A DNA stretch of 64,000 nucleotides from Escherichia coli. Its GTDB lineage: Bacteria; Pseudomonadota; Gammaproteobacteria; Enterobacterales; Enterobacteriaceae. The notes under the pieces were generated by a model, which did no database searches, was not told the origin of the DNA, and was given only the letters and a program-made list of their open reading frames with translations. The position numbers were made by a program, and so were the translations under genes. This document shows, piece after piece, positions 466 through 12,699 of the stretch (positions are counted from its first letter, which is position 1; the number at the start of each line of letters is the position of its first letter). The stretch is from assembly GCF_029227855.1 (NCBI RefSeq), contig NZ_CP074356.1; one strand, given 5' to 3'.

Positions 466-486
466 GCCGCCTGTGCGGCTTTTTTT
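466..486 (+). terminator. Small hairpin plus T-run between D and E, as in lambda
   Basis: GCCGC (466-470) pairs with GCGGC (475-479), followed by T7 at 480-486. Confidence 0.5.
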
Positions 487-499
487 ACGGGATTTTTTT

Positions 500-775
500 A
501 TGTCGATGTACACAACCGCCCAGCTGCTGGCGGCAAATGAGCAGAAATTTAAGTTTGATCCGCTGTTTCTGCGTCTCTTTTTCCGTGAGAGCTATCCCTT
601 CACCACGGAGAAAGTCTATCTCTCACAAATTCCGGGGCTGGTAAACATGGCGCTGTACGTTTCGCCGATTGTTTCCGGTGAGGTTATCCGCTCCCGTGGC
701 GGCTCCACCTCTGAATTTACGCCGGGATATGTCAAGCCGAAGCACTTAGCATGGCTTTCTGAGGCTTTCGTGTAG
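500..775 (+). pseudogene. E: Major capsid protein gpE, 5' fragment (codons 1-82) running into island DNA
   Basis: MSMYTTAQLLAANEQKFKFDPLFL...SEFTPGYVKPKH matches lambda gpE residues 1-82. After base 745 the frame reads LAWLSEAFV and stops at 773-775. The rest of E resumes at 11872. Confidence 0.93.
735..744 (+). repeat. Left copy of the 10-bp direct repeat AGCCGAAGCA (attL core)
   Basis: Identical 10-mer at 11864-11873. Both copies lie on the E codons for K-P-K-H. Confidence 0.8.
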
Positions 776-872
776 CTGCTGGTTTTTACACTTAATCTTT
801 TGATAATAAAGAATAAGTTTATCTGGCGCTTTCACTGAATTTTCCTCGTTATCTGTGTGTTGCAATCATCTC

Positions 873-893
873 TGTATTGCAGCTTGTATTGCT
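873..893 (+). repeat. Tandem TGTATTGC motif (TGTATTGCAGCTTGTATTGCT), candidate arm-type Int binding site, left arm
   Basis: A near-identical 21-mer (TGTATTGCAGCATGTATTGCT) lies in the same orientation at 11768-11788. A degenerate third copy, TGTGTTGCAA, lies at 857-866. Confidence 0.5.
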
Positions 894-907
894 TTTTGGG
901 GCTAAAA

Positions 908-2143
908 ATGGCTGGCGAGAACAAACTGAGCGACAAAGCGCTTAAAGGATATCTGGGGAAACCCAGAGAAAAGCAGATCACCATTGCTGATGGAAAGGGG
1001 CTTTCTATTCGTGTGAGTACTAAAGGGGCTGTGAGCTTTGTTTTCTTCTACAGGTTAGCAGGTGGCCGGGCTGCTCCGGTCTGGCTAACGTTGGGTAAAT
1101 ATCCTGATATGTCACTCAAACAGGCAAGGGAAAAGCGCGACGAGTGCCGTGGTTGGTTGGCTGACAAACGTGATCCGCGTATCCAGATTAAGATTCAGGC
1201 TGAAGAACGCTTAAAGCCGGTCACAGTGGAGGATGCACTAAATTACTGGTATGAAAATTACTGTAAGGTGCGTCGTAAAACTCATGCTGTAACGCTTGGC
1301 AGATTTCGAAAGCATATCTTTCCCTATATCGGTCATTTGCCCGTAAATGACACTCACCTATATGAATAGCTGGACTGTTTTGACCGAATTAAACGTAATG
1401 CACCAGTTATGGCGGCGTATGTTTTTTCTGACACTAAATTAGCTCTTCGTTTTTGTCGGGTACGCCAGTACGCGACGTGTGATGCTTTAAAGGATTTGCG
1501 CATGAGTGATGTGGGGCAGATTGCAGGTAAGCGGGATCGGGTTCTGGATGAGGTCGAACTCGGCCAGCTCTGGAAGGCAATTTTTGTCGAGCCTGATTTA
1601 AAACTAATGTCTGAATACACGCGAAAAATGTTTGTGCTTTGTACAGTATTTGGATGTCGAATGAGTGAAGCCCGATTATCAGAATGGAGCGAATGGGATC
1701 TCGAAAGTTGGGTTTGGACTGTGCCAAAAGATCACTCAAAAACTGGTGTTGAAATCGTCAGACCAGTACCTGAAATTCTACGACAGTGGGTAACGGATGT
1801 TCACGAAGAGACAAAACATACTGGTTATGTGCTGGGAAGTCTGCGAATTAGAGAAAGCGTAAGCAAGATTGGGGGGAAAATCGGTAAACGTTTGGGCCAT
1901 GAAAAACAATGGTCACTACACGACCTTAGAAGAACGCTATCTACTCATCTAAGTGATCTCGGTGTTGAATTTTATGTAGTAGAACAACTGTTAGGCCATG
2001 CGCTACCTGGCGTGGCAGGTGTTTACAACCGGAGTAAGTTTATGGCTAAAAAACTGGATGCTCTGGAACTCTGGACTACATATCTCAATAGCATCGCAGC
2101 TGCTGATTCAAAAGTGACAATCCTCAAACAAAAGGCTGGTTAG
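908..2143 (+). pseudogene. int: P4-family tyrosine integrase interrupted by one in-frame amber codon
   Basis: ORFs 857-1369 and 1409-2143 are in the same frame, separated only by TAG at 1367-1369 (context LYE*LDCFDRI; TGG/Trp would fit). The C-terminal part has HDLRRT, LLGH and GVYNRS catalytic-type motifs. The ATG at 908 gives MAGENKLSDKALK. Confidence 0.85.
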
Positions 2144-2144
2144 C

Positions 2145-2375
2145 ATGAAAAAAATGGCAATTGTTGATAAAAAGGGTCTGGAGTACATTCCTAACATTGA
2201 CCGAATGATCCGTGAGAAAGAATGTCGGGAGCTAACTACTCTTGCGAACAGCACACGCTGGAAGCTGGAGAAGGAAGGAAAATTTCCTAAGCGGATCAAG
2301 ATTGGTTCCACTGCTGTTGCATATCGTCTTTCAGAAGTGCAGGCATGGATTCGAGGTGAGTGGGAAACAACTTAA
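2145..2375 (+). CDS. alpA: AlpA-family HTH regulator/excisionase-like protein
   Basis: 76 aa. IREKECRELTTLANSTRWKLEKEGKFPKRIKIGSTAVAYRLSEVQAWI fits the AlpA pattern (G-FP-P-K-G ... W-x-x-EV-x-W). The ATG lies 1 nt after the int stop. Confidence 0.8.
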   Translation: MKKMAIVDKKGLEYIPNIDRMIREKECRELTTLANSTRWKLEKEGKFPKRIKIGSTAVAYRLSEVQAWIRGEWETT

Positions 2376-2382
2376 CTATTAG

Positions 2383-3213
2383 GTGGGCATTGTGGCTATA
2401 TTTCATTATACAGATCTTTTTGGTTTGAAAGGTATATTAGACTCTAATTCTTTATGGGCTACAAACATATATTTCTTAAATGATAAAGAGGAGTCTAACC
2501 ATGGATGTGAATGCTTTCGAAATACAATTAAAATAGTTGATGACAATATCATTCCAAAAGATAAGAAAACTATTTTGCTCAAGTCTCTTGACATGTATGA
2601 GAAAGGGAGGTTACAAAAAGAAAAAGGGATTGATAAACATGTTTATAGCATCTCTTTTTGTAAGGAAAACGATAAGTTAAGTCAGTGGAGAGGTTACGGA
2701 AATAAACAGGGTGTTTGCATTGAGTTTGATGCGGATGAACTTGTGAGCTTTTCTCAAAATATTTATTTAAATTGTGTTGCACATGATGTTATATATTCAA
2801 ATAATAACGATATTACTAAGATGAGTAAGGAGTTGGGAGAGTTTTTTTCTTGTAATGGTATTAATATTAAAGAAATGAATGATCATTTTGTAACAATGGT
2901 CTCTACGTATCAATTTATATCTAAATACATCCCATTTTTTAAACATCCTAGTTTTATCGAAGAGAATGAATTTAGATTGGTATTTACTCCGTGGATGCAA
3001 ATGCCAGATGTGCACTTCAGAATAAATAATAATGGGATCATCCCTTATATCATCATTGATAATAAAGATAATAGAAAGTTACCAATTAAAAGCATTACAA
3101 TTGGCCCGACAAACGATTATGATTTCATTGAGGCTGGTATAAAAATGTTCTTGGATTCAAGAGGATTTAGTTCTGTGGAAATTAAATCCTCATCAATTCC
3201 ATTCAGGGGGTAA
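2383..3213 (+). CDS. DUF2971-like protein (AT-rich cargo)
   Basis: 276 aa with a GTG start. Motifs FHYTD...GIL, FLNDKEE, SISFC...DKLSQWRGYG..GVCIEF and KHPSFIEENEFR resemble the DUF2971 signature. The gene is markedly AT-rich compared with its neighbours. Confidence 0.6.
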   Translation: MGIVAIFHYTDLFGLKGILDSNSLWATNIYFLNDKEESNHGCECFRNTIKIVDDNIIPKDKKTILLKSLDMYEKGRLQKEKGIDKHVYSISFCKENDKLSQWRGYGNKQGVCIEFDADELVSFSQNIYLNCVAHDVIYSNNNDITKMSKELGEFFSCNGINIKEMNDHFVTMVSTYQFISKYIPFFKHPSFIEENEFRLVFTPWMQMPDVHFRINNNGIIPYIIIDNKDNRKLPIKSITIGPTNDYDFIEAGIKMFLDSRGFSSVEIKSSSIPFRG

Positions 3214-3258
3214 GGATTAACACTTTTAATCTATGATATTATAAAAATGGTGGATAAA

Positions 3259-3278
3259 GGCGACCAGAATTGGTCGCC
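3259..3278. terminator. Hairpin between the convergent cargo genes
   Basis: GGCGACCA (3259-3266) pairs with TGGTCGCC (3271-3278). Confidence 0.4.
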
Positions 3279-3344
3279 AATGTGAGTATATAGTTAGCCT
3301 TAATCAGAATACGAGGTTATCGCCTGATAGGCAATGTGAACAGT

Positions 3345-3701
3345 TCAATATTTAGGTGGTTCAACAAGAGCGTTTATCATTGCTCTCAAATTATCGCGAA
3401 CACTTATCCAAGTCTGTTCTGCTCGTTCTAACTCATCAGTGTACAACTTTAATGTTTTATCTATGCCATATGTGGCTATTAAATTTATAGCTTCTTGTAA
3501 TTTTTCAGGATTATTCCTTCTTGGGGGAGTGAATATACCACGGATTTTTCCGGTAATTAAAGCTTTACGGTGTCTACATAGAATACCTTTACTTCCTGCT
3601 GGACAATTACAAGTCATGATTAGCGAGCCAGAATCGTTTGATACAGTGACTATGTATACATCCAAACTACTGCTACTTGTTGCGAAGAATTCGTATTTCA
3701 T
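3345..3701 (-). CDS. Small SWIM-type zinc-finger protein
   Basis: 118 aa. CNCPAGSKGILCRHRKAL fits the CxC...CxH SWIM motif. Convergent with the DUF2971-like gene. Confidence 0.6.
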   Translation of the reverse strand: MKYEFFATSSSSLDVYIVTVSNDSGSLIMTCNCPAGSKGILCRHRKALITGKIRGIFTPPRRNNPEKLQEAINLIATYGIDKTLKLYTDELERAEQTWISVRDNLRAMINALVEPPKY

Positions 3702-3728
3702 GTGTTAGCTCCTTGACTTCAATTATTC

Positions 3729-3920
3729 TTATCCTTTTGGTTCAATACCGCGCCGTAGCAGCTCTTTGCGCCCTAATTCTTTAAGCCAGTTGGCTAGGCT
3801 TATGCCGTCGCTCTGCGCTTCTTTGTCGAATTGCTCTTTTAGCTCTGGAGAAATTCGCATTCTGAATTGTGGAGATTGCCCATCACCCTTAGGACTTTTA
3901 TCGCGTTTGATCGTTGACAA
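3729..3920 (-). CDS. Arc/Mnt-like ribbon-helix-helix repressor candidate
   Basis: SPQFRMRISPELKEQFDKEAQSDGISLANWLKE resembles the Arc N-terminus (PQFNLRWPREVLDLV...). I prefer the TTG start at 3920, which is preceded by AGGTGG. The ATG at 4043 in the ORF track would add a low-complexity extension that overlaps the divergent leader. Confidence 0.55.
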   Translation of the reverse strand: MSTIKRDKSPKGDGQSPQFRMRISPELKEQFDKEAQSDGISLANWLKELGRKELLRRGIEPKG

Positions 3921-3965
3921 GTGACCACCTATTGAATTAGCCTTTTCATTGTTAGGTGACCACCT
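3921..3965. promoter_or_regulatory. Two direct copies of GTGACCACCT, candidate operators in the divergent control region
   Basis: Exact 10-mers at 3921-3930 and 3956-3965. The second copy lies within the palindrome AGGTGACCACCT. The first abuts the repressor start. Confidence 0.4.
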
Positions 3966-3991
3966 TAACACGGGGGCACTTAAAAAAGCAA

Positions 3992-4022
3992 AGCCCGAAG
4001 GTGCTGGGAACACCAACGGGCT
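3992..4022 (+). ncRNA. Structured hairpin in the leader of the early operon (possible C4/CI-like immunity RNA element)
   Basis: AGCCCG-AA-GGTG-CTGGGAA-CACC-AA-CGGGCT forms a two-tier stem with a symmetric AA/AA internal loop. It lies about 40 nt upstream of an icd-like gene, the position of c4 in P1 immI. Confidence 0.3.
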
Positions 4023-4059
4023 TCTAACCACCAACGATAGCAACAGTATCGAGGTAGCT

Positions 4060-4263
4060 ATGAGAAATCATACCACACACCCGCAAGGGCGGGACCCGCA
4101 CAACCTGAATAAATACATCTGGCGTTTTATCGCCTTGAGTACGGCACAACCGCGCATGATTACCATCGAGGCCATCAGCGAACAGGAAGCCCGCCAGCAA
4201 TCCCCAACTGGCTGCGTGATGGTATTCGCCGCCCGTATTCGTCAGGAGGTGTGCCGTGCTTAA
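4060..4263 (+). CDS. Icd-like (cell division inhibitor-like) small protein
   Basis: 67 aa. KYIWRFIALSTAQPRMITIEAISEQEARQQSP...FAARIRQEV matches my memory of Icd-like proteins from P4-type satellites. GAGGT lies 5 nt upstream of the ATG at 4060. Confidence 0.55.
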   Translation: MRNHTTHPQGRDPHNLNKYIWRFIALSTAQPRMITIEAISEQEARQQSPTGCVMVFAARIRQEVCRA

Positions 4264-4441
4264 AACCTTCCGTGTATTTGCCCGAGCTGTTAACCCACTG
4301 GGCCACACAATTGGTATCACTCAGAACGTGAAGGCTGTTAATGTTCAGACGGCTATTGCTGCGGTGAGAAGCGAATCATCAGAATATGGCTTATCACAAG
4401 TCATTATTTCAGCAGTGTATGAATTAAAAGAGGTGCATTAA
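4256..4441 (+). CDS. Hypothetical protein
   Basis: 61 aa with a GTG start overlapping the upstream stop. Part of a tightly packed same-strand operon. Confidence 0.45.
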   Translation: MLKTFRVFARAVNPLGHTIGITQNVKAVNVQTAIAAVRSESSEYGLSQVIISAVYELKEVH

Positions 4442-4632
4442 TGCAGGAAATCACATTACACGAAGCCGCTGAACGTGCGCACCAGACAGAAATTATTTGC
4501 CGCCTTCTTGAGGTATACCCGAACAAAATTACAGATGCTGATATATCCGCGCTGGCGAGCCTACTGGCGCGCCTTTCGGGAAGTGTCGCTAGTTTCCTGA
4601 TTGAGGAAGAAAGTAAGCTGGTGGGGGATTAA
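4441..4632 (+). CDS. Hypothetical protein
   Basis: 63 aa. TAATG overlap with the upstream gene suggests translational coupling. Confidence 0.5.
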   Translation: MQEITLHEAAERAHQTEIICRLLEVYPNKITDADISALASLLARLSGSVASFLIEEESKLVGD

Positions 4633-4854
4633 ATGAATACAGAACGGGAAGTCTTTTTTAAATTGTTAGCATGTGCAGAAAGTTCATTAACTTTAAATAA
4701 TTCAGCAAAAGCAATATTAAATATGTGGCTTGATTGCATAAATGACAATGAAGATGCAAATATTGCTTATGGCCTGTTGTCACTTATTGATGAATCAGCA
4801 GAAAAACTCAATGACGCAATAAATAGTGCCCTGCTATCAAATAAGTCGAGTTAA
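4633..4854 (+). CDS. Hypothetical protein (AT-rich)
   Basis: 73 aa. The ATG directly follows the upstream TAA. Confidence 0.5.
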   Translation: MNTEREVFFKLLACAESSLTLNNSAKAILNMWLDCINDNEDANIAYGLLSLIDESAEKLNDAINSALLSNKSS

Positions 4855-4871
4855 GTCGAGGAATAAATAAT

Positions 4872-5171
4872 ATGGAAATGAAAAATTCTGGCTTTATTGC
4901 CAGCGGCCCCGCTCGGCCTGAATTTATGAACGGCGATATTTACCGCGATAAATACGGCGGCACGGTAACGATTAAAGGCGTGGCAGAACGGCGCATCACT
5001 TACCGCCGTGAGGGGTATAGCTATGACTGCGTGATGCCTGTTTATCAGTTCCGGCGTGATTTTTCCCTGGTATATGCCGCACCCCGCAGTAAGCCCATCA
5101 GCAGGGAAAAAGCGCGGGGAAACATCCAGAAAATGAAAAGCATGATTAACGCATTCAGGGGCAAAAAATGA
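4872..5171 (+). CDS. Hypothetical protein
   Basis: 99 aa. ATGA overlap with the primase-helicase gene. Confidence 0.55.
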   Translation: MEMKNSGFIASGPARPEFMNGDIYRDKYGGTVTIKGVAERRITYRREGYSYDCVMPVYQFRRDFSLVYAAPRSKPISREKARGNIQKMKSMINAFRGKK

Positions 5172-6919
5172 AACTGGCACCGAACTTAAAAAAACAGCCA
5201 CGCGACAGACTGACAGAGGTAATCATCTTTGCAGGTAGTGATGCGTGGAGCCATGCGAAAGAGTGGCGGGAATGGGCGGGTAAACATATTGCCGCCGACG
5301 ATGTGCCGCCTGTCGTGCTGGCTGATGAGCAACTGAAAAATATCACCGATTACCGGATCATTGATGAAGATCGTCAGTGTGTGCGTGTTTACCGCGCAGG
5401 ACATATCACAGAGCACAGCATGACGCAGATTGTTACGTTACTGGCTGTGGCTGGAGTGAAGACCGTACACGAATACGCGGGGATTACTGACACCAGCCCA
5501 GTGGATTTATCCGAGCAGTTGCCGCGACTCAAAGAGGAATGCGAGCGTGGGGAAAGTCTGGTGCTTAATCTTCCGACGAAGCAAAAGGCGCAACTTTCAC
5601 AGATGGCAGACAGTGAACGTGCACAACTACTTGCCGATCGCTTTGATGGTGTGTGTGTTCATGCAGAAAGTGAAATCGTCCACGTATGGCGCGGCGGGGT
5701 ATGGTGTCCGGTCAGCACAATGGAGCTGAGCCGCGAAATGGTGGCGATCTATTCAGAGCACAGGGCCACGTTCAGCAAACGTGTAATCAATAACGCCGTG
5801 GAAGCGTTAAAAGTTATTGCCGACCCCATGGGGGAGCCGTCCGGTGATTTGCTACCGTTCACTAATGGTGTGCTTAACCTGAAAACGGGGGAATTTTCTC
5901 CGCACTCGCCGGAGCACTGGAGCACCACGCACAATGGCATTGAGTACACGCCACCAGTAGCAGGGGAAAACATCCGCGATAATGCGCCAAATTTCCATAA
6001 ATGGCTTGAACATGCTGCAAGAAAAGACCCGCGCAAGATGATGCGTATATGTGCCGCGTTATACATGATTATGGCGAACCGCTACGACTGGCAGATGTTC
6101 ATTGAGGCCACCGGAGACGGGGGAAGCGGTAAGAGTACATTTACCCATATTGCCACCCTGCTTGCTGGCAAACAGAACACCGTAAGCGCGGAGATGACAT
6201 CACTCGATGATGCAGGAGGGCGCGCGCAGGTTGTCGGGAGTCGTCTTATCGTCCTTGCCGATCAGCCGAAATATACGGGGGAAGGCACGGGCATCAAGAA
6301 AATCACGGGAGGCGATCCCGTTGAAATTAACCCGAAATATGAGAAGCGATTCACGACGATAATAAGGGCGGTGGTACTGGCAACCAATAACGACCCGATG
6401 ATCTTTACCGAACGGGCCGGAGGTGTGTCACGCCGTCGGGTGATTTTCCGGTTCGACAACATTGTAAGGGAGGACGAAAAAGACAAGGAATTACCGGAAA
6501 AGATAGCGGCAGAAATCCCCGTAATTATCCGCCGCTTGCTGGCTAATTTTGCTGACCCTGAAAAGGCACGGGCTTTATTACTGGAACAGCGTGACGGTGA
6601 TGAAGCTCTGGCAATAAAGCAGCAAACGGATCCGGTTGTTGAGCTTTGCGCGGCGCTGGAGTTTCTGGAGGAAGCTCGTGGGCTAATGATGGGCGGTGGT
6701 GGTGACACCGTGAAGTACACGACCAGAAACAGCCTTTACCGTGTCTATATGGCCTTCATGGCATACACAGGAAAGGGGAAATGTTTGAGCGTGAATGAGT
6801 TCGGAAAGGCTATGAGGTCAGCGGCGAAAGTTTACGGATATGAATATATTACGCGAAAAGTTAAGGGAGTCACGCAGACCAACGCAACGACTACTGATGA
6901 TTGCGATGCGTTTTTATAA
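5168..6919 (+). CDS. P4/D5-family primase-helicase (replication initiator, pri-rep type)
   Basis: 583 aa. FHKWLEHAARKD...YDWQMFIEATGDGGSGKSTF fits the phage/plasmid primase P4-family C-terminal NTPase with a Walker A motif. An iteron field lies immediately downstream. Confidence 0.8.
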   Translation: MKLAPNLKKQPRDRLTEVIIFAGSDAWSHAKEWREWAGKHIAADDVPPVVLADEQLKNITDYRIIDEDRQCVRVYRAGHITEHSMTQIVTLLAVAGVKTVHEYAGITDTSPVDLSEQLPRLKEECERGESLVLNLPTKQKAQLSQMADSERAQLLADRFDGVCVHAESEIVHVWRGGVWCPVSTMELSREMVAIYSEHRATFSKRVINNAVEALKVIADPMGEPSGDLLPFTNGVLNLKTGEFSPHSPEHWSTTHNGIEYTPPVAGENIRDNAPNFHKWLEHAARKDPRKMMRICAALYMIMANRYDWQMFIEATGDGGSGKSTFTHIATLLAGKQNTVSAEMTSLDDAGGRAQVVGSRLIVLADQPKYTGEGTGIKKITGGDPVEINPKYEKRFTTIIRAVVLATNNDPMIFTERAGGVSRRRVIFRFDNIVREDEKDKELPEKIAAEIPVIIRRLLANFADPEKARALLLEQRDGDEALAIKQQTDPVVELCAALEFLEEARGLMMGGGGDTVKYTTRNSLYRVYMAFMAYTGKGKCLSVNEFGKAMRSAAKVYGYEYITRKVKGVTQTNATTTDDCDAFL

Positions 6920-6932
6920 AAAATGGCAATGG

Positions 6933-7161
6933 TTATCTACCTTGTCTACCTGACTGAAAGAAAATACTTTTATTTCAATGTATTAATGCAGGTAGATAAC
7001 TATTTTTCACTGTCTACCTGTTATCTACCTTATCTACCCATTTTTGTAGACAGGTAAGGAGACGGGTAGAGATGAGGTAGACAGCTATTTGGGGCTGTCT
7101 ACCTCCCTGAAACCCGCGCCATTACTGGCCTGATAACTAATCAGGTAGACAAGGTAGACAA
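6933..7161. repeat. Iteron field, candidate satellite origin of replication
   Basis: At least 10 copies of GGTAGA(C/T)A or its complement, in both orientations: 6933-6941, 6942-6950, 6991-6999, 7011-7018, 7021-7029, 7030-7038, 7077-7085, 7095-7103, 7144-7152, 7153-7161. AT-rich spacers lie around 6955-6990. Confidence 0.75.
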
Positions 7162-7208
7162 GGTGGTGGTGCACAAAAAACTTTTTAAACGAGGGGGTAA
7201 AAATAAAA

Positions 7209-7466
7209 ATGCACACTTCAGGAAAACTGAACAAACATATAAAGCCACATTACCGCGCCCTTGATATGGCTGAACACTGGCTAAGGGTGGCGATTAAGGC
7301 AATAGACCGCAACGCCGGGGAAGGATACGCGAAAGCACATCCCGAACTGATAAGCGCATTCATGACAACGGCGGCTGCAAACTTTGCCACGCTGACCGAA
7401 CGGGAGATTGCTGAAGCGGAGGAAGTGACAACAATCAATATTAAGTCCGGAGAGCAGGCAGCATGA
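7209..7466 (+). CDS. Hypothetical protein
   Basis: 85 aa. ATGA overlap with the SSB gene. Confidence 0.5.
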   Translation: MHTSGKLNKHIKPHYRALDMAEHWLRVAIKAIDRNAGEGYAKAHPELISAFMTTAAANFATLTEREIAEAEEVTTINIKSGEQAA

Positions 7467-7912
7467 CGGCGCAAATATCAGTTTACGGGCGGTTGGTGGA
7501 CGACCCGCAGACAAAACAGACCAGCAAGGGCACCCCCATGACGCTGGCGCGTATGGCGGTATCACTGCCCTGCAGTCAGTCGGATGACGGTCTGGCGACG
7601 TTGTGGTTATCTGTCCTGGCGTTTGGCAGACAAGCCGACGCGCTGGCAAAGCATCACAAAGGCGAACTCCTGAGCGTGGCGGGTAACATGCAGATGAGCC
7701 AGTGGACTGGACAGAACGGCGAAACGCGGCAGGGCTGGCAGGTTATCGCAGACAGCGTAATCAGTGCGCGATCGGTGCGACCGGGCGGCAAAAAAGGCCA
7801 ACAGGGGCAGGCTACTGACGCACTGAACAGAGCAAAACAACAGGCAGATCAGCAAGGAAGCCAGCCACCAGAGGGAGATAATGAGCAATGGGGAGATGAT
7901 ATCCCGTTTTAA
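7463..7912 (+). CDS. ssb: Single-stranded DNA-binding protein (SSB family)
   Basis: 149 aa. OB-fold-type N-terminus (VYGRLVDDPQTKQT...WLSVLAFGRQAD...KGELLSVAGNMQMSQW), a Gln/Gly-rich linker, and the canonical acidic tip DDIPF. Confidence 0.8.
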   Translation: MTAQISVYGRLVDDPQTKQTSKGTPMTLARMAVSLPCSQSDDGLATLWLSVLAFGRQADALAKHHKGELLSVAGNMQMSQWTGQNGETRQGWQVIADSVISARSVRPGGKKGQQGQATDALNRAKQQADQQGSQPPEGDNEQWGDDIPF

Positions 7913-7923
7913 ATATTGCCAAT

Positions 7924-7954
7924 AAAAAAAGCCGGAAAAAATAAATTTTCCGGC
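7924..7954 (-). terminator. Hairpin with its T-run only on the minus strand, between the replication and capsid modules
   Basis: GCCGGAAAA (7931-7939) pairs with TTTTCCGGC (7946-7954). A7 at 7924-7930 gives a U-tract only for leftward transcription. Confidence 0.4.
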
Positions 7955-8128
7955 ATGCTACATAAATCCCGACCAAAGGGAGTGAAGATATTAACACTAA
8001 TTGTCCGCACTGAAGTTGTCACACCAAAACTTTATACAACATTGCACTCGGTTGCATGTGTTCGCATGACAAATATCGGTGATAGCATATATCCACAATT
8101 ATTTTTAATGAATGCAAAGAGGATGCGT

Positions 8129-9169
8129 ATGGTTGATTTATATTCGCCTACTCAGCTTGTACAGGTAGTTAATGCTGTAGATGTACAAAAACAACTAAAT
8201 GCGTTGTTTACCAGTTTGTTTTTTACTCGCTCGGTAATGTTTGAATCGCGCGATATTATTCTTGATACAATCGACGATCCAAATATCCCAATTGCAGCGT
8301 TTTGTTCTCCTATGGTGGGTAGTAAAGTTTCACGTGACGAAGGGTACGAATCAAAAACAATTCGTCCAGGCTATATGAAGCCGAAAAGCAGCATTGATCC
8401 AAATAAGTTAGCTGTGCGCCCTGCTGGTGTGTCACCTGAGCAATACAATGCTTTTGGGGCGCGTAATATTAAAGTTAAACAGGCGATTGTAAATCAGGCT
8501 AAAGCTATTCGTGCACGTATTGAATGGCTTGCTGTTCAGGCAATCACAACGGGGAAAAATATCATTGAGGGCGATGGTATTGAACGTTATGAGCTGGACT
8601 GGAATATAAAACCACAAAATATCATCACTCAGTCTGGCGGTACTGAGTGGTCAGGTAAGGATAAAGAAACTTTTGATCCAAATGATGATATTGAGAGCTA
8701 CGCAGAATTTAGTGAGGGCGTCACTAATATCATCATTATGGGTGGTAATGTATGGAAGAAATACCGTTCATTCAGAGCGATAAAAGAGGCTTTGGATACC
8801 CGTCGTGGTTCTAATTCCGAACTGGAAACGGCCCTTAAAGACCTTGGTGATTCGGTGAGTTTTAAAGGGTATATGGGCGATGTTGCGATTGTTGTTTACA
8901 GCGGGCGTTATACCGACGAGGACGGAACAGAAAAACATTTCCTTGATCCTGATTTGATGGTGCTTGGCAATACGGCTCTTCAGGGGATTGTCGCCTATGG
9001 CGGTATTCAGGATCCGGAGCTAATCCGAATGGGGCTGACTAAAGCCGAACTTGCACCGAAAAACTATATTGTGCCTGGTGATCCGGCTATTGAATATGTG
9101 CAGACACATTCAGCACCACAGCCAATACCGGCCCGCATCAATCGTTTTGTTACCGTTCGCATTGGCTAA
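8129..9169 (+). CDS. Satellite-encoded major capsid protein, gpE (lambda E) family
   Basis: 346 aa. The C-terminal half aligns by eye with lambda gpE: ITQSGGTEWSGKDKETFDPNDDIESYA, LDTRRGSNSELETALKDLG, YMGDVAIVVYSGRY, MVLGNTA, PGDPA. The N-terminal half is much more diverged. The ATG at 8129 has AAGAGGA 6 nt upstream. The longer ORF from 7916 has no homology support. Confidence 0.88.
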   Translation: MVDLYSPTQLVQVVNAVDVQKQLNALFTSLFFTRSVMFESRDIILDTIDDPNIPIAAFCSPMVGSKVSRDEGYESKTIRPGYMKPKSSIDPNKLAVRPAGVSPEQYNAFGARNIKVKQAIVNQAKAIRARIEWLAVQAITTGKNIIEGDGIERYELDWNIKPQNIITQSGGTEWSGKDKETFDPNDDIESYAEFSEGVTNIIIMGGNVWKKYRSFRAIKEALDTRRGSNSELETALKDLGDSVSFKGYMGDVAIVVYSGRYTDEDGTEKHFLDPDLMVLGNTALQGIVAYGGIQDPELIRMGLTKAELAPKNYIVPGDPAIEYVQTHSAPQPIPARINRFVTVRIG

Positions 9170-9178
9170 GGGGGAGCA

Positions 9179-9520
9179 ATGGCTACTCATTACACTGAAC
9201 TCATGGCTGGCACTGAAGCACTGGTGACTACGCTGGGGATATTTTCAGCTAATAAAGGGGTAATTCCTGCATTTACGCCACTGATGCAGGAAGATGCAAC
9301 AGGTGCACTGGTGGTATGGGATGGTTCGAGCGTAGGTAAAGCGGTTTATGTTTCCGCTGTACAAATCGACACCGCGAAAAAAACACAGGCTCAGGTCTAT
9401 AAGACAGGTGTCTTAAATGTTGATGCTCTGAACTGGCCTGAGTCTGTTAAAGAACTGTCAGTAAAGGTTGCAGCGTTTGTTGGCTCAGGTATTTCTGTTC
9501 AGCCGCTGGCTCGTGTGTAA
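9179..9520 (+). CDS. Satellite-encoded head decoration protein, gpD family
   Basis: 113 aa. Shares TPLM, LVxWDG, YKxG, LxWPE and AFxGxGIS with lambda gpD in the same order. Confidence 0.75.
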   Translation: MATHYTELMAGTEALVTTLGIFSANKGVIPAFTPLMQEDATGALVVWDGSSVGKAVYVSAVQIDTAKKTQAQVYKTGVLNVDALNWPESVKELSVKVAAFVGSGISVQPLARV

Positions 9521-9531
9521 AGGGGGATACA

Positions 9532-9915
9532 ATGCAGAATGATTACAATGACCTTAAGCCAATTGCCGAAATGATGTACCCGAATCAAGCTGTAGAGGAA
9601 TTAAAAGCTATCGCTGACAAAATGTGTTTAAGCGAGCGCCTTGTTGATATGAATCAGGTGATGGAAATTACAACCCTGAGTCGTCGTACACTGCTAAACC
9701 TTGAGGCTAGTGGAGAGTTCCCGGAGCGTGTGCAGGTTACGGAAGGGCGTAAGGCCTGGTATTTAAGTGAAGTGATCGACTGGATAAATAATATTCCTCG
9801 CGCTTCTGAATATTGCCGCGTACCTGTCCCAAAAAAGCCAGATGCGGCGCTATGCCTCAAGATTGAGCGTGTACGCCGCAATGCACGGGATGGTCGCTAT
9901 AAGCTGATTGGTTGA
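9532..9915 (+). CDS. AlpA/MerR-like winged-HTH protein immediately upstream of cos
   Basis: 127 aa. MNQVMEITTLSRRTLLNLEASGEFPERVQVTEGRKAWYLSEVIDWI fits the AlpA pattern. It is the last gene before the cos site. Confidence 0.65.
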   Translation: MQNDYNDLKPIAEMMYPNQAVEELKAIADKMCLSERLVDMNQVMEITTLSRRTLLNLEASGEFPERVQVTEGRKAWYLSEVIDWINNIPRASEYCRVPVPKKPDAALCLKIERVRRNARDGRYKLIG

Positions 9916-9922
9916 TGAAATT

Positions 9923-9948
9923 AGGACCCGCTCTGGCTGGCGGGTCCT
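9923..9948 (+). terminator. Hairpin after the capsid module
   Basis: AGGACCCGC (9923-9931) pairs with GCGGGTCCT (9940-9948), followed by TTCC (a weak T-run). Confidence 0.45.
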
Positions 9949-9954
9949 TTCCGG

Positions 9955-10140
9955 CGATCCAGAACGTTACGGGGCGTCAGGCGCGCAGTTTTTCGCTATT
10001 TGTGAAAATTTTCCTGTTTAAGGCGTTTCCGTTCTTCTTCGCCGTAACTTAATGTTTTTATTAAAAACACCCCCTAAAAAGAAAGGAAACGACAGGTGCT
10101 AAAAACAGGCTTTTTGGCCTCTGTCGTTTCCTTTCTCTGG
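9955..10140 (+). other. cos: Lambda-type cos site (cosN plus cosB R3-I1-R2-R1) with no adjacent terminase genes
   Basis: CGTTACG|GGGCGTCAGGCG|CGCAGTTTTTCGCTATTTGTGAAAATTTTCCTGTTTAAGGCGTTTCCGTTCTTCTTCG...GAAAGGAAACGACAGGTGCT...GGCTTTTTGGCCTCTGTCGTTTCCTTTCTCTG is collinear with my memory of the first ~180 bp of lambda. The R-site repeats CGTTTCC lie at about 10023-10034, 10081-10095 (inverted) and 10121-10135. The predicted 12-nt end at 9972-9983 matches lambda GGGCGGCGACCT at 7 of 12 positions. Confidence 0.85.
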
Positions 10141-10479
10141 TTTTGTTGCCATCCGTCGCGGTCTATCACCAGAAAAAATCTTATCCCTGAGTTGAATCAG
10201 GCCCTATTCAGAAGCGGCCAATAACGCGCCGCTAGCTTCACTTCATAGTTATGGCCTACTTCTGCGCCATTGCAATTGCTTTATGCGCCTTGATGGTGGA
10301 ATATAGAGCAAGCAGTTTGCGAATAACAAAGTTTCATATGTTTTTTGCTGTGTGGCTAGACAACTTTACAGCAGAGTTTTGTGTCAGTTCTTTATGTGTG
10401 CAAGCAAGCTTGAGGGGGAATTACTTCTGGCTGTATCTTTGCTTAAGAACAGCAATAATTTAATCATAAGGAAATGTAT

Positions 10480-10506
10480 ATAAGCCTGATTAAATTTCAG
10501 GCTTAT
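10480..10506 (-). terminator. Hairpin just downstream of the TIR gene
   Basis: ATAAGCCTGA (10480-10489) pairs with TCAGGCTTAT (10497-10506), 8 nt past the stop of the minus-strand gene. Confidence 0.5.
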
Positions 10507-10513
10507 TGAAATG

Positions 10514-11656
10514 TTAACTCCTTATTAGAGAGTAAATTCCATCCTCTTTAAGGAAGTCTATTACTTCAAAGAATGAGATAAAGAATTCCCAAGAACCAAA
10601 AGCATATGCATGAATTTCGTAAGGTGCAAAATGGAATCTAAATCCATCACTATTTATTGTGAACGAGTCTAAGTTACTATCCATGATACCCGTTGCAAAC
10701 GTACTAATGTCGTCCTCACTTGGTTTTTCACCAGTTTTCTCCCAAAATTCACGAGCTGATTCAGAGATTATTTTTTGTTTTATCTTATTAATCGCTTCTT
10801 GCTCTTTCCCTTCGGTAAATACATCCCATAAACTAAATTTGTATGCGTAGTCATCCTTGGTTATTACGAAATTACTAGTTTCAAAATGACTGTTAGGGTG
10901 TGCTGCTCCCGCACCATACCAATGTACGGAATGAAGGATGCTCATGACATTTTCGTTACAGTATGAGATGTTATAACTTTCATTATAGGAACTAGTGTAA
11001 GTGTGTTTATATTCTTCATCCCAATATGGTGTTCCTGGCCATAGTGATGTGCGTTCAGAAAAAATATGTAAAGCCGCTTTTCCTGAAAAGTAATCACTAA
11101 TGAGTTTTGCTGATTTCGGTAATGTATGGCTTTCAATTCTTGGATATGCTATTTCAATTTCATGCCCTGGGATCTTGTTATATTCTTCCTTGAAAACCTC
11201 GCTGCTAAAGTTAAATGGCCCATAAGTGATACCTTGAGATATTTCAAGTTTTTGTTGCGATGCTGCTAATCTTAAAGATCTAGATAAAATGTCCCAACCA
11301 TCATTTCTCTTAAAATCAATGAATTGGAGCTTGCTTGATATGTAGGCGGGTACTTCGCAATCATCAATAAGTAATGGTATCACGAACACATCATCTGGTT
11401 TGTAATACTTTAGTTTATCAATGGCGTCATTTATTTCGCGGCGAATATAACCATTTTTCTGAGTGCTCACTTTGCTAAGGATAAGGATTATCAAGTTTGA
11501 ATTAGCGAAGTTTTTTTGGATTTCATAATCCCAGTTTACGCCAGCGGGTATATCTTTTACATCCATCCAAGGGGAATATCCTCCACTTTTTAGCCTTTCA
11601 TAGATTTCTTCAGTTATCGTTTCATCTTCTTTTGCATGAGCAAGAAAAATTTTCAT
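10514..11656 (-). CDS. TIR-domain protein fused to a DUF4163/DUF3298 (RsiV-like) C-terminal domain
   Basis: 380 aa with no signal peptide or TM segment visible. The N-terminus (MKIFLAHAKEDE...GYSPWMDVKDIPAGVNWDYEI...SNLIILILSKVSTQKNGYIRREINDAI) fits the TIR_2 pattern, including the conserved Glu position. The C-terminus has IEIAYPRI... and HWYGAGAAHPNSHFETSNF...FSLWDVF, resembling the DUF4163 and DUF3298 motifs. AT-rich. Confidence 0.7.
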   Translation of the reverse strand: MKIFLAHAKEDETITEEIYERLKSGGYSPWMDVKDIPAGVNWDYEIQKNFANSNLIILILSKVSTQKNGYIRREINDAIDKLKYYKPDDVFVIPLLIDDCEVPAYISSKLQFIDFKRNDGWDILSRSLRLAASQQKLEISQGITYGPFNFSSEVFKEEYNKIPGHEIEIAYPRIESHTLPKSAKLISDYFSGKAALHIFSERTSLWPGTPYWDEEYKHTYTSSYNESYNISYCNENVMSILHSVHWYGAGAAHPNSHFETSNFVITKDDYAYKFSLWDVFTEGKEQEAINKIKQKIISESAREFWEKTGEKPSEDDISTFATGIMDSNLDSFTINSDGFRFHFAPYEIHAYAFGSWEFFISFFEVIDFLKEDGIYSLIRS

Positions 11657-11767
11657 TGAATATTCCTTTATAATTTAACTAATTAAGTGAAGGAGGCTTT
11701 ACTTGGCTGTGTTAGAAAAAATTCGGTTTGTTTTTTGTACGATGCCAAGAAGGCTTTTCCCTAACCA

Positions 11768-11788
11768 TGTATTGCAGCATGTATTGCT
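11768..11788 (+). repeat. Tandem TGTATTGC motif (TGTATTGCAGCATGTATTGCT), candidate arm-type Int site, right arm
   Basis: Matches 873-893 at 20 of 21 positions, in the same orientation. Confidence 0.5.
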
Positions 11789-11863
11789 ACGTAATTCTGC
11801 ACCCTCTCATTTATAAAATAAATCTCTGTTAAATCAAGTATCTTTTTTCTATTTGACTCATGT

Positions 11864-11873
11864 AGCCGAAGCA
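11864..11873 (+). repeat. Right copy of the 10-bp direct repeat AGCCGAAGCA (attR core)
   Basis: Identical to 735-744. Followed by TGAGGTGAATCCGCAG, the continuation of lambda E (H-E-V-N-P-Q). Confidence 0.8.
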
Positions 11874-12699
11874 TGAGGTGAATCCGCAGATGACCCTGCG
11901 TCGCCTGCCGGATGAAGATCCGCAGAATCTGGCGGACCCGGCTTACCGCCGCCGTCGCATCATTATGCAGAACATGCGTGACGAAGAGCTGGCCATTGCC
12001 CAGGTCGAAGAGATGCAGGCAGTTTCTGCCGTGCTTAAGGGCAAATACACCATGACCGGTGAAGCCTTCGATCCGGTTGAGGTGGATATGGGCCGCAGTG
12101 AGGCGAATAACATCACGCAGTCCGGCGGCACGGAGTGGAGCAAGCGTGACAAGTCCACGTATGACCCGACCGACGATATCGAAGCCTACGCGCTGAACGC
12201 CAGCGGAGTGGTGAATATCATCGTGTTTGATCCGAAAGGCTGGGCGCTGTTCCGTTCCTTCAAAGCCGTCAAGGAGAAGCTGGATACTCGTCGCGGCTCT
12301 CATTCCGAGCTGGAGACAGCGGTGAAAGACCTGGGCAAAGCGGTGTCCTACAAGGGGATGTATGGCGATGTGGCCATCGTCGTGTATTCCGGACAGTACG
12401 TGGAAAACGGCGTCAAAAAGAACTTCCTGCCGGACAACACGATGGTGCTGGGGAACACTCAGGCACGCGGTCTGCGCACCTATGGCTGCATTCAGGATGC
12501 GGACGCACAGCGCGAAGGCATTAACTCCTCTGCCCGTTACCCGAAAAACTGGGTGACCACCGGCGATCCGGCGCGTGAGTTCACCATGATTCAGTCAGCA
12601 CCGCTGATGCTGCTGGCTGACCCTGATGAGTTCGTGTCCGTACAACTGGCGCAATCGTGGCCCTTCGGGGCCATTTTCTCTCTGTGGAGGAGTCCATGA
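11872..12699 (+). pseudogene. E: Major capsid protein gpE, 3' fragment (codons 82-341), with loss of the normal stop
   Basis: HEVNPQMTLRRLPDEDPQNLADPAYRRRR...DPDEFVSVQLA matches lambda gpE 82-341. The expected TAA is CAA (12652-12654), so the frame runs 15 more codons (QSWPFGAIFSLWRSP) to TGA at 12697-12699. Confidence 0.93.

What the first reader, a model, noticed from the sequence alone, without database searches (positions are those of the whole stretch)
10514..11656. Cytoplasmic TIR domain fused to an RsiV-like DUF4163/DUF3298 domain in the cos-to-att cargo slot
Seen in sequence:
- A 380-aa AT-rich minus-strand gene lies alone between cos and attR.
- The N-terminal ~130 aa fit the bacterial TIR_2 pattern: IFLAH..ED, W.D..DI..G..W, ILILS..S....G.I..E with the Glu at the usual catalytic position.
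- The remainder carries ...IEIAYPRI... and ...HWYGAGAAHPNSHFETSNF...F.LWDVF, which look like DUF4163 and DUF3298.
- No signal peptide or TM segment is visible.

Established knowledge:
- Bacterial TIR proteins are NAD-consuming or signalling effectors in Thoeris, CBASS-like and other abortive-infection systems.
- DUF3298 is the lysozyme-binding domain of the anti-sigma factor RsiV.
- The equivalent position in P4, between cos/psu and int, is a defence-gene hotspot.

Inference: this may be a single-gene defence in which an RsiV-like sensor detects a phage muramidase or another phage protein and triggers TIR NADase activity. I cannot match it to a named system.
Basis: partly seen in the sequence, partly recalled or inferred. 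Interest (0 to 1): 0.8.

Follow-up and report, generated by a model that had tools for sequence, protein, structure and literature searches.

The report
Satellite-borne TIR protein with RsiV-like sensor
A phage satellite lodged inside a prophage capsid gene carries one lone gene that joins an NAD-destroying TIR domain to a cytoplasmic RsiV-like domain; it is very probably an untested, unnamed single-gene anti-phage suicide switch, but nothing shows that it senses phage lysozymes.

Summary

It is the only gene in a 1.7-kb cassette (10138-11845) between a lambda-type cos and attR. The host element is not P4-like. It is a known "11capE"-type helper-embedded PICI inserted in capsid gene E of a lambdoid prophage. 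Sibling elements carry an AbiJ-like gene or an unknown gene in the same slot.

The family of about 130 clusters keeps this architecture across Proteobacteria. It always occurs alone, on prophages, satellites and integrative islands, often beside known defence genes. The same cytoplasmic C-domain is also fused to HNH nucleases.

Best reading (0.6): a single-protein abortive-infection sensor and effector that works like SpbK. The C-domain saddle binds a phage-derived trigger, the TIR domains assemble, and NAD+ is depleted.

The endolysin-sensing idea is not supported. The conserved motifs are generic to DUF3298, RsiV's own lysozyme loop is absent, and RsiV is specific for C-type lysozyme.

I found no name, PADLOC model or paper for this fusion, so I rate it a new variant of a known kind. 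No experiment exists.

The parts
10514..11656 (-). Gene for the 380-aa TIR-DUF4163/DUF3298 protein (identical to RefSeq WP_000688840.1, 'TIR domain-containing protein')
   Evidence: ORF; Pfam; 100% match to P0001; RefSeq annotation
11282..11656 (-). TIR domain, residues 1-125; effector-type, closest to the TIR domains of SPARTA TIR-APAZ
11435..11437 (-). Codon of Glu74, the predicted catalytic glutamate of the TIR NADase site
   Evidence: Invariant in alignment A1; aligns with the Glu of LKEL (residue 77) in SPARTA TIR-APAZ chains
10517..11251 (-). C-terminal DUF4163/DUF3298 (RsiV-fold) domain pair, residues 136-380; proposed sensor
10892..10921 (-). WYGAGAAHPN motif (residues 246-255); invariant Y247 G248 G250 A252 H253 N255; occupies the position of RsiV's lysozyme-binding loop 163-171
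   Evidence: RsiV contacts from PMC5014341 Table 2
10595..10624 (-). PYEIHAYAFG motif (residues 345-354); invariant Y346 and Y351; aligns with RsiV Y255-Y261 (YEVAPGY), the second lysozyme-contact loop
10480..10506 (.). Perfect 10-bp inverted repeat (ATAAGCCTGA-7 nt-TCAGGCTTAT) 7 nt after the stop codon; possible terminator
   Evidence: Read from the sequence. The consensus terminator scan did not report it
10138..11845 (.). Cargo cassette: the segment that differs from sibling satellite L010, which carries a 1.9-kb cassette with an unknown 438-aa gene at exactly this place
   Evidence: blastn break-points; annotations
9940..10146 (+). Lambda-type cos region of the satellite
   Evidence: 88-91% identical to the cos region of more than 3000 E. 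coli lambdoid prophages; PMC10111431 places cos at this position in 11capE
735..744 (.). attL core AGCCGAAGCA inside prophage capsid gene E
   Evidence: a 10-bp identity block is described in PMC10111431
11864..11873 (.). attR core AGCCGAAGCA; the C-terminal part of capsid gene E resumes here
745..11863 (+). Helper-embedded PICI satellite of '11capE' type. Genes in order: int (pseudogene), DUF2971 and SWIM cargo, DUF4222, D5/P4-type primase, SSB, capsid E homologue, decoration D homologue, AlpA, cos, TIR cargo
   Evidence: PMC10111431

Best explanation
The gene encodes a self-contained, cytoplasmic abortive-infection protein. The satellite carries it as cargo, and it is expressed from its own promoter, antisense to the helper's late transcription. 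The N-terminal TIR domain is the effector, an NAD+ glycohydrolase with catalytic Glu74. The C-terminal DUF4163/DUF3298 (RsiV-fold) module is the sensor. Its most conserved surface is the 'saddle' formed by the WYGAGAAHPN and PYxxxxYAxG loops. This saddle binds a phage-derived ligand, most likely a (multimeric) phage protein. Binding brings TIR domains together or releases them, the composite NADase site forms, NAD+ collapses, and the infected cell dies or arrests before phage release. That outcome protects the lysogen, the helper prophage and the satellite from competing phages. Shown computationally: the domain architecture, the fold, the conserved Glu, the conserved saddle, the solitary-gene organisation, the location in mobile-element and defence hotspots, and the effector swap to HNH. 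Inferred: NADase activity, assembly on activation, the abortive outcome and the identity of the trigger.
For: TIR domain. TIR_2 scores above its cut-off and E74 is invariant. The domain is most similar to NAD-depleting effector TIRs: SPARTA TIR-APAZ, TIR-SAVED and retron-TIR. The ThsB_TIR model is below its cut-off (13.8 bits against 21.2).

C-domain. It has the fold of RsiV and 3CYG. Its invariant residues lie in the two loops that form RsiV's ligand-binding saddle (PMC5014341).

Family. 131 homologue clusters keep the ~380-aa architecture from Enterobacterales to Burkholderia, Xanthomonas and Sphingomonas. 68 of the 146 closest C-domain representatives (best 150 listed, less four already held) carry an N-terminal TIR.

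Organisation. No neighbour is conserved within 4 kb in nine contexts.

Contexts. Burkholderia and Xanthomonas prophages, between the replication and terminase modules. Yersinia islands, next to reverse transcriptases, AAA_23 and YobI genes. A Cronobacter islet with AbiTii. A Pantoea island with GmrSD_N, HEPN and RelA_SpoT genes. A Sphingomonas mobilisable element.

Slot. The same slot in sibling satellites holds an AbiJ-like gene or a different unknown gene, with clean cassette break-points. PICI ends are published immune hotspots (PMC11364771).

Effector swap. About 100 clusters of cytoplasmic HNH-DUF3298 proteins have the same AGAAHPN and PYQVAAYA motifs. One of them lies next to an integrase.

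Against: There is no experimental datum for this family. A survey of all E. coli TIR proteins (64 clusters, 32 cloned, 12 active; PMC11350192) lists TM, AAA, TPR, DUF4238 or TIR-only among the active systems and never mentions DUF3298. This cluster was therefore either not cloned or was inactive against 111 phages; the supplements are not held, so I cannot tell which. The gene is rare in E. coli (15 of 5426 complete genomes) and absent from 50,697 isolated phage genomes. The simple scan found no consensus sigma-70 promoter upstream. The AF2 inter-domain geometry is uncertain (pTM 0.65), so autoinhibition is not shown. DUF3298 domains are otherwise mostly extracytoplasmic, and their generic function is unknown.
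Confidence: 0.6

Rival explanations
1. One reading: the RsiV-like domain specifically recognises a phage endolysin or muramidase in the cytoplasm late in infection, and this triggers the TIR NADase.
Against: The closest structure is 3CYG, not RsiV. The conserved motifs are generic to DUF4163/DUF3298, including MPT64, BF2082 and secreted lipoproteins. RsiV's contact loop ETTQASSYT is replaced by GAGAAHPN. RsiV is specific for C-type lysozyme, and MPT64 did not co-purify with lysozyme (PMC5014341). From my own knowledge, phages of Proteobacteria use GH24, GH19, GH104 or GH108 enzymes or amidases, not GH22 enzymes. Nothing in the genomic contexts points to lysins.
Confidence: 0.1
2. The C-domain senses a small molecule or cell-wall-derived ligand (for example, muropeptides released when phage lysins damage the wall) rather than a phage protein.
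For: The GGAHP-type and PYxxxPYAxG motifs are conserved across secreted and cytoplasmic DUF3298 proteins with very different partners. These include peptidoglycan deacetylases (PdaC, and SpPgdA 2C1G). Such conservation is more typical of a shared small ligand or a structural core than of a variable protein target.
Against: No ligand is known for any DUF3298 domain other than lysozyme for RsiV. The motifs may simply be structural. No transporter or muropeptide-recycling genes are linked to the family.
Confidence: 0.1
3. The TIR domain is a signal generator, as ThsB is in Thoeris. It would make an ADPR-derived messenger for an effector encoded elsewhere, not an NAD+-depleting effector.
Against: No ThsA, caspase-like, Macro or SLOG partner, or any conserved neighbour, was found in nine contexts. 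The gene moves alone between unrelated mobile elements. ThsB_TIR is below its cut-off, while effector-type TIR models score far better. The parallel HNH fusion argues that the N-terminal position holds the killing module.
Confidence: 0.07
4. It is not an anti-phage defence. It would instead be a satellite-helper interference or addiction factor, or a Tcp-like TIR virulence protein acting on eukaryotic hosts.
For: It sits on a satellite that already manipulates its helper (PMC10111431). Some E. coli TIR proteins (TcpC) are virulence factors (general knowledge). 20 of 32 tested E. coli TIR candidates showed no defence (PMC11350192).
Against: Homologues occur in soil, plant and water bacteria and in metagenomes, and in prophages and islands that are not satellites. 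The protein has no secretion signal. Its neighbours are defence genes, not virulence genes. Sibling satellites replace it with AbiJ.
Confidence: 0.08

Closest known systems
SpbK of Bacillus subtilis ICEBs1 (single-protein TIR abortive infection; PMC11984713)
   Different: The domain order is reversed: in SpbK the sensor is N-terminal and the TIR domain C-terminal. SpbK's 115-aa sensor region is unrelated to DUF4163/DUF3298. The host is Gram-positive. The trigger of the E. coli protein is unknown.
TIR-APAZ of SPARTA (short prokaryotic Argonaute systems)
   Same: It has the closest TIR sequences among solved structures (E 4e-8; the catalytic Glu aligns) and in PADLOC (Aga_TIR 1.6e-17). The TIR domain is N-terminal and acts as an NADase when oligomerised.
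   Different: There is no APAZ domain, no adjacent Argonaute gene and no nucleic-acid guide. The C-terminal half has a different fold.
RsiV anti-sigma factor (lysozyme receptor; PDB 5JEN, PMC5014341)
   Different: RsiV is a membrane protein with an extracytoplasmic sensor, a sigma-V-binding N-terminus and a sigV operon. None of these is present here. Sequence identity is about 15%. The lysozyme-contact loop is not conserved. RsiV signals through proteolysis, not through a fused enzyme.
TIR-SAVED, TIR-STING and Cat1 (ligand-activated TIR effectors)
   Different: Those sensors bind cyclic nucleotides made by a linked cyclase or by a CRISPR system. Here there is no linked signal synthase, and the sensor fold is different.
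PICI and P4 accessory-slot defence genes (Fillol-Salom 2022 via PMC11364771; Rousset 2022, PMC9122126) and HE-PICI 11capE (PMC10111431)
   Same: The genomic logic is the same: a swappable cassette near cos at the satellite's 3' end. The sibling elements' AbiJ-like gene occupies the identical slot.
   Different: None of the held papers mentions a TIR-DUF3298 gene. The 11capE paper treats the non-unidirectional genes as hypothetical.

Membership tests
TIR domain superfamily (Pfam TIR_2, PF13676) | Profile match above the curated cut-off | tested here: met
   76.7 bits against a cut-off of 28, residues 3-122
TIR domain superfamily (Pfam TIR_2, PF13676) | Flavodoxin-like TIR fold | tested here: met
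TIR domain superfamily (Pfam TIR_2, PF13676) | Catalytic glutamate of NADase-type TIRs | tested here: met
   E74 is invariant in 30 homologues and aligns with Glu77 of SPARTA TIR-APAZ
TIR domain superfamily (Pfam TIR_2, PF13676) | NAD+ glycohydrolase or cyclase activity | not testable with these tools
   Needs an enzyme assay
DUF4163/DUF3298 module (PF13739 PdaC + PF11738) | PF11738 match above the cut-off | tested here: met
   42.8 bits against 24.1, residues 278-362
DUF4163/DUF3298 module (PF13739 PdaC + PF11738) | PF13739 match above the cut-off | tested here: not met
   16.4 bits against 29.1, E 0.02. Some homologues do carry a precomputed PF13739 hit
DUF4163/DUF3298 module (PF13739 PdaC + PF11738) | Two-domain fold as in 3CYG, RsiV, PA4972 and BF2082 | tested here: met
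RsiV-type lysozyme receptor / anti-sigma factor | N-terminal sigma-V-binding region, transmembrane helix and extracytoplasmic sensor | tested here: not met
   The N-terminus is a TIR domain, and there is no hydrophobic segment
RsiV-type lysozyme receptor / anti-sigma factor | Adjacent ECF30 sigma factor gene (sigV operon) | tested here: not met
   There is no sigma gene beside the gene in the window or in nine homologous contexts
RsiV-type lysozyme receptor / anti-sigma factor | Conservation of lysozyme-contact residues (H139, loop 163-171, Y255/E256/P259/Y261) | tested here: not met
   Loop 163-171 is replaced by GAGAAHPN. Only Y255/E256 have equivalents (Y346/E347) (a low-probability hhalign consistent with the structural superposition; contacts from PMC5014341)
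RsiV-type lysozyme receptor / anti-sigma factor | Binds C-type lysozyme | not testable with these tools
   Needs a binding assay
Thoeris (ThsB + ThsA-type effector) | Linked effector gene (ThsA SIR2/SLOG, Macro-TM, caspase-like) | tested here: not met
   No conserved neighbour within 4 kb in nine contexts; gene tables
Thoeris (ThsB + ThsA-type effector) | ThsB-type TIR profile | tested here: not met
   PF08937 scores 13.8 bits against 21.2. NCBIfam ThcB4 scores 16.4 against 220
SPARTA (TIR-APAZ + short pAgo) | APAZ domain and adjacent Argonaute gene | tested here: not met
   PADLOC Aga_TIR models match residues 2-118 only. The C-half has the DUF3298 fold. No Argonaute-like neighbour appears in the gene tables
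Helper-embedded PICI, 11capE type (host element) | Integrated inside prophage capsid gene E with a 10-bp attL/attR identity block | tested here: met
   AGCCGAAGCA at 735-744 and 11864-11873; the E N-terminal and C-terminal fragments flank the element; PMC10111431
Helper-embedded PICI, 11capE type (host element) | PICI gene set (int, alpA, pri, own capsid homologue, cos similar to the helper's) | tested here: met
   Pfam calls for int, D5_N/DUF5906 primase, SSB, Phage_cap_E, HDPD and AlpA; cos
Helper-embedded PICI, 11capE type (host element) | Inducible excision and helper-dependent transfer | not testable with these tools
   In this copy int carries W154* (TGG to TAG), so excision is doubtful
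Validated E. coli TIR systems TIR-I to TIR-IX (PMC11350192) | Sequence identity to one of the nine named systems | not testable with these tools
   The sequences and supplements are not held. The text lists TM, AAA, TPR, DUF4238 or TIR-only architectures, none with DUF3298

The most novel reading that the evidence does not exclude
The cytoplasmic DUF4163/DUF3298 (RsiV-fold) module is a previously unrecognised class of infection sensor. It would couple to interchangeable killing domains (TIR NADase here, HNH nuclease in a sister family). Its conserved saddle would recognise a phage cell-wall enzyme or a cell-wall-damage product. If so, bacteria would use one fold to detect lysozyme-like attack both outside the cell (RsiV) and inside it (this family).
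Probability: 0.12. Interest if true: 0.85.

Novelty: new variant of a known kind. Interest (0 to 1): 0.55.

Why it matters
If the gene proves active, it adds a new sensor fold to the TIR-based bacterial immune repertoire. It also gives the large DUF3298 family its first cytoplasmic function. The parallel HNH-DUF3298 family would show that the fold works as a portable trigger module.

The gene is small, self-contained, native to E. coli and carried on a defined cassette. Trigger identification by escaper genetics would therefore be straightforward.

The finding also documents defence cargo on helper-embedded PICIs, elements whose cargo has not been discussed. Here the cargo gene points against the helper's late transcription. 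This hints that helper induction may silence the defence by transcriptional interference.

If the gene is inactive, it is one more unvalidated TIR candidate.

Tried and rejected
**Searches that led nowhere**
- Full-text searches for DUF3298 with TIR, and for RsiV with anti-phage, found no papers. DUF3298 with phage found only unrelated papers.
- PADLOC, NCBIfam and PHROGs gave only partial, TIR-only matches and no full-length model or name.
- Two papers on E. coli TIR systems and on domain-centric discovery do not mention this architecture. The supplements of the E. coli TIR survey are not held, and the Fillol-Salom 2022 Cell paper is not held.
- tblastn against 50,697 isolated phage genomes found nothing. 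In plasmids there are only two distant full-length homologues, on Agrobacterium and Rhizobium megaplasmids.
- The promoter scan gave no consensus site upstream of the gene. By eye there is only a weak candidate, TTGATT-16 nt-TATAAA, on the minus strand at about 11800-11830.
- I could not get model coordinates, so the conserved surface could not be mapped in 3D. No complex prediction with phage proteins was possible.

**Considered and rejected**
- A P4-like host element: it is a PICI with a lambda-type cos, capsid and decoration homologues and AlpA.
- A Thoeris, SPARTA or CBASS component: no partner genes.
- An RsiV orthologue: no TM, no sigma gene, and the contact loop is not conserved.
- A third, unknown cytoplasmic N-terminal domain in the ~390-aa DUF3298 hits: these have lipoprotein signal peptides and are secreted.

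Full report
**1. The observation**

An AAGGA ribosome-binding site lies 8 nt upstream. A perfect 10-bp inverted repeat (10480-10506) follows 7 nt after the stop.

The gene is AT-rich, with 35.6% GC. The element has 43.7% and the adjacent prophage head and tail genes about 57%.

Pfam confirms TIR_2 (residues 3-122, E 2.8e-21) and DUF3298 (278-362, E 1e-10), both above their curated cut-offs. The former DUF4163 model, now called PdaC, matches 166-256 but below its cut-off (E 0.02).

An AlphaFold2 model built on a 30-sequence alignment is confident (mean pLDDT 87) and settles the DUF4163 question at fold level. The whole C-terminal half superposes on the two-domain DUF4163/DUF3298 structures:

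The Glu in RREIN is E74. It is invariant across 30 homologues that are as little as 24% identical. It aligns with the Glu of LKEL (residue 77) in SPARTA TIR-APAZ chains. From my own knowledge, that residue is the catalytic one.

**2. The surroundings**

The host element is not P4-like. Window 473-744 encodes the first ~86 residues of a lambda-type major capsid protein E, and the rest of E resumes at 11864. Between them lies an 11.1-kb element bounded by a 10-bp direct repeat, AGCCGAAGCA, at 735-744 and 11864-11873.

Its genes are, in order:
- a tyrosine integrase
- a variable region
- a DUF4222 protein
- a D5/P4-type primase
- an SSB
- its own capsid-E homologue
- a decoration-protein D homologue
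- an AlpA regulator
- a lambda-type cos

This is the published "11capE" helper-embedded PICI, including the 10-bp identity block (PMC10111431). That paper does not discuss the cargo gene.

All 15 of 5426 complete E. coli genomes that carry the TIR gene (at least 99% identity) have it in this element, next to a split capsid gene.

Compared with a sibling element (L010), similarity stops at window 10137, just after cos, and resumes at 11846, 18 bp before the att core. So 10138-11845 is a discrete cassette. In siblings the same slot holds one of three things:
- an unannotated 438-aa protein
- an AbiJ-like Abi_C gene (PADLOC AbiJ, 2e-21)
- nothing

PICI 5' and 3' ends are reported immune-system hotspots (PMC11364771, citing Fillol-Salom et al. 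2022).

**3. The family**

A search of 5.8 billion proteins found 131 clusters with the same ~380-aa TIR_2 + DUF3298 architecture. They come from Enterobacterales (63-71% identity), Burkholderia, Collimonas, Pseudomonas, Xanthomonas, Delftia and Sphingomonas (24-41%), and from many metagenomes.

Besides the TIR residues, the invariant columns are Y247 G248 G250 A252 H253 N255 (motif WYGAGAAHPN) and F343 Y346 Y351 (motif FxFxPYxxxxYAxG).

The genomic contexts are all mobile or defence-like:
- three different Yersinia island contexts, beside reverse transcriptases, AAA_23 and YobI ATPase genes
- Burkholderia and Xanthomonas prophages, between the replication and terminase modules
- a Sphingomonas mobilisable element
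- a Cronobacter islet with AbiTii
- a Pantoea island with an integrase and GmrSD_N, HEPN and RelA_SpoT genes
- a Salmonella island end

An all-against-all comparison of ORFs within 4 kb in nine contexts found no shared neighbour. The gene therefore travels alone.

**4. The C-domain as a module**

An exhaustive phmmer search with residues 136-380 against 1.84 billion representatives gave 495 hits. Of the 146 best representatives not already held, 68 carry an N-terminal TIR domain. The rest are fragments or classical secreted or lipoprotein DUF3298 proteins.

One hit was an HNH-DUF3298 fusion. Following it up revealed about 100 clusters of 310-350-aa cytoplasmic HNH + DUF3298 proteins with the same AGAAHPN and PYQVAAYA motifs. 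One of them lies beside an integrase.

A conserved C-terminal module joined to alternative toxic N-terminal domains is the usual signature of a sensor with swappable effectors.

**5. The lysozyme idea**

I recalled the B. subtilis RsiV sequence from memory and validated it: residues 60-285 are identical to chain 5JEN_A. A profile alignment to the family's C-domain has low formal probability but is consistent with the structural superposition. It places two RsiV lysozyme-contact loops as follows:
- Loop 163-171 (ETTQASSYT) falls at the position of WYGAGAAHPN.
- Loop Y255-Y261 (YEVAPGY) falls on P345-A352 (contacts from PMC5014341 Table 2).

So the family's most conserved residues sit where RsiV binds its ligand, which supports a binding-site role. 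However, these motifs are generic. They also occur in 3CYG, BF2082, MPT64 and secreted lipoproteins. RsiV is the member that has lost the GGAH-type motif.

RsiV is specific for C-type lysozyme, and the DUF3298 protein MPT64 did not co-purify with lysozyme (PMC5014341). The fold therefore says "binding module", not "lysozyme sensor". I give the endolysin version 0.1.

**6. The most likely mechanism (0.6)**

I propose a single-protein abortive-infection switch that works like SpbK. SpbK is the ICEBs1 TIR protein whose NADase is switched on by direct binding of the phage portal protein (PMC11984713).

The TIR domain is of the effector type. The best matches are SPARTA TIR-APAZ, TIR-SAVED and retron-TIR, while ThsB models fall below their thresholds. 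I therefore expect NAD+ depletion rather than production of a signal for a partner, and no partner gene exists.

The trigger is unknown. A phage protein is the most likely class. A small ligand or cell-wall-derived ligand remains possible (0.1).

The gene points against the direction of the helper's late transcription through the satellite (PMC10111431). This fits expression in the lysogen and possible silencing when the helper is induced; that last point is inference only.

**7. Caveats**

There is no experimental evidence. A systematic survey of E. coli TIR proteins grouped 781 proteins from 2289 genomes into 64 clusters, cloned 32 and found 12 active (PMC11350192). That set of genomes presumably included IAI39, which carries this gene. 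The active systems are described as having TM, AAA, TPR or DUF4238 domains, or TIR only. DUF3298 is never mentioned, and the supplements are not held. The cluster was therefore either untested, which is more likely given its rarity, or negative.

I found no paper, PADLOC model or NCBIfam model for the fusion.

**8. Verdict**

- The domain interpretation and the single-gene-defence idea are supported by context.
- The lysozyme-sensing mechanism is not supported.
- The host element is an already described type of satellite.
- The gene is an uncharacterised, unnamed candidate: a new variant (new sensor fold) of a known kind (single-protein TIR abortive infection).
- Interest is moderate (0.55). 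It would rise sharply if the trigger proves to be a lysin or a wall-damage signal.

Noticed in passing
window 908-2143 (stop at 1367-1369): The satellite's integrase carries an in-frame TAG where an otherwise 99%-identical intact copy (L001) has TGG (W154*). This copy probably cannot excise, which would leave the helper's capsid gene permanently split.
   Followed up: yes
window 12652-12654: The stop codon of the split prophage capsid gene E is CAA here and TAA in L001. This adds 15 codons and is a second sign that the interrupted capsid gene is decaying.
   Followed up: yes
window 2365-7255: The window's satellite and the L001 satellite are 98-99% identical at both ends but unrelated or mosaic in the centre. 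The window copy has a DUF2971 protein (2383-3213) and a SWIM zinc-finger protein (3345-3701, minus strand) in the 5' variable region. Both give only weak hits to PADLOC candidate families (PDC-S31, PDC-S62). This may be a second cargo hotspot.
   Followed up: partly
L010:6221-7537 (minus strand), E. coli AF40: In a sibling satellite the cos-to-attR slot holds a 438-aa protein (WP_016247987.1) with no Pfam or PADLOC match. By position it is another candidate defence gene.
   Followed up: partly
L011:7171-7932 (minus strand), E. coli KMi006: Another sibling satellite carries an AbiJ-like (Abi_C) gene in the same slot and has a small-terminase gene in place of the cos segment.
   Followed up: partly
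proteins P0221, P0267-P0366; loci L020 and L021: There is a sizeable family of cytoplasmic HNH-endonuclease + DUF3298 fusion proteins (310-350 aa), found mostly in metagenomes. They share the AGAAHPN and PYQVAAYA motifs, and one lies next to an integrase. No source gives any member a functional name beyond its domain labels.
   Followed up: partly
protein P0186 (653 aa): This variant has TIR + DUF3298 followed by a C-terminal right-handed beta-helix domain.
   Followed up: no
window 7916-9169: The mechanical ORF for the satellite's capsid homologue starts at a TTG and is 417 aa long. RefSeq annotates the equivalent gene as 346 aa, so the true start is probably near 8129.
   Followed up: no
L012 (portal gene B) and L013 (chromosomal, near yejO): Close relatives of the same satellite backbone are integrated at other sites, namely a prophage portal gene and a chromosomal site. 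This agrees with the published range of target sites for this integrase clade.
   Followed up: no
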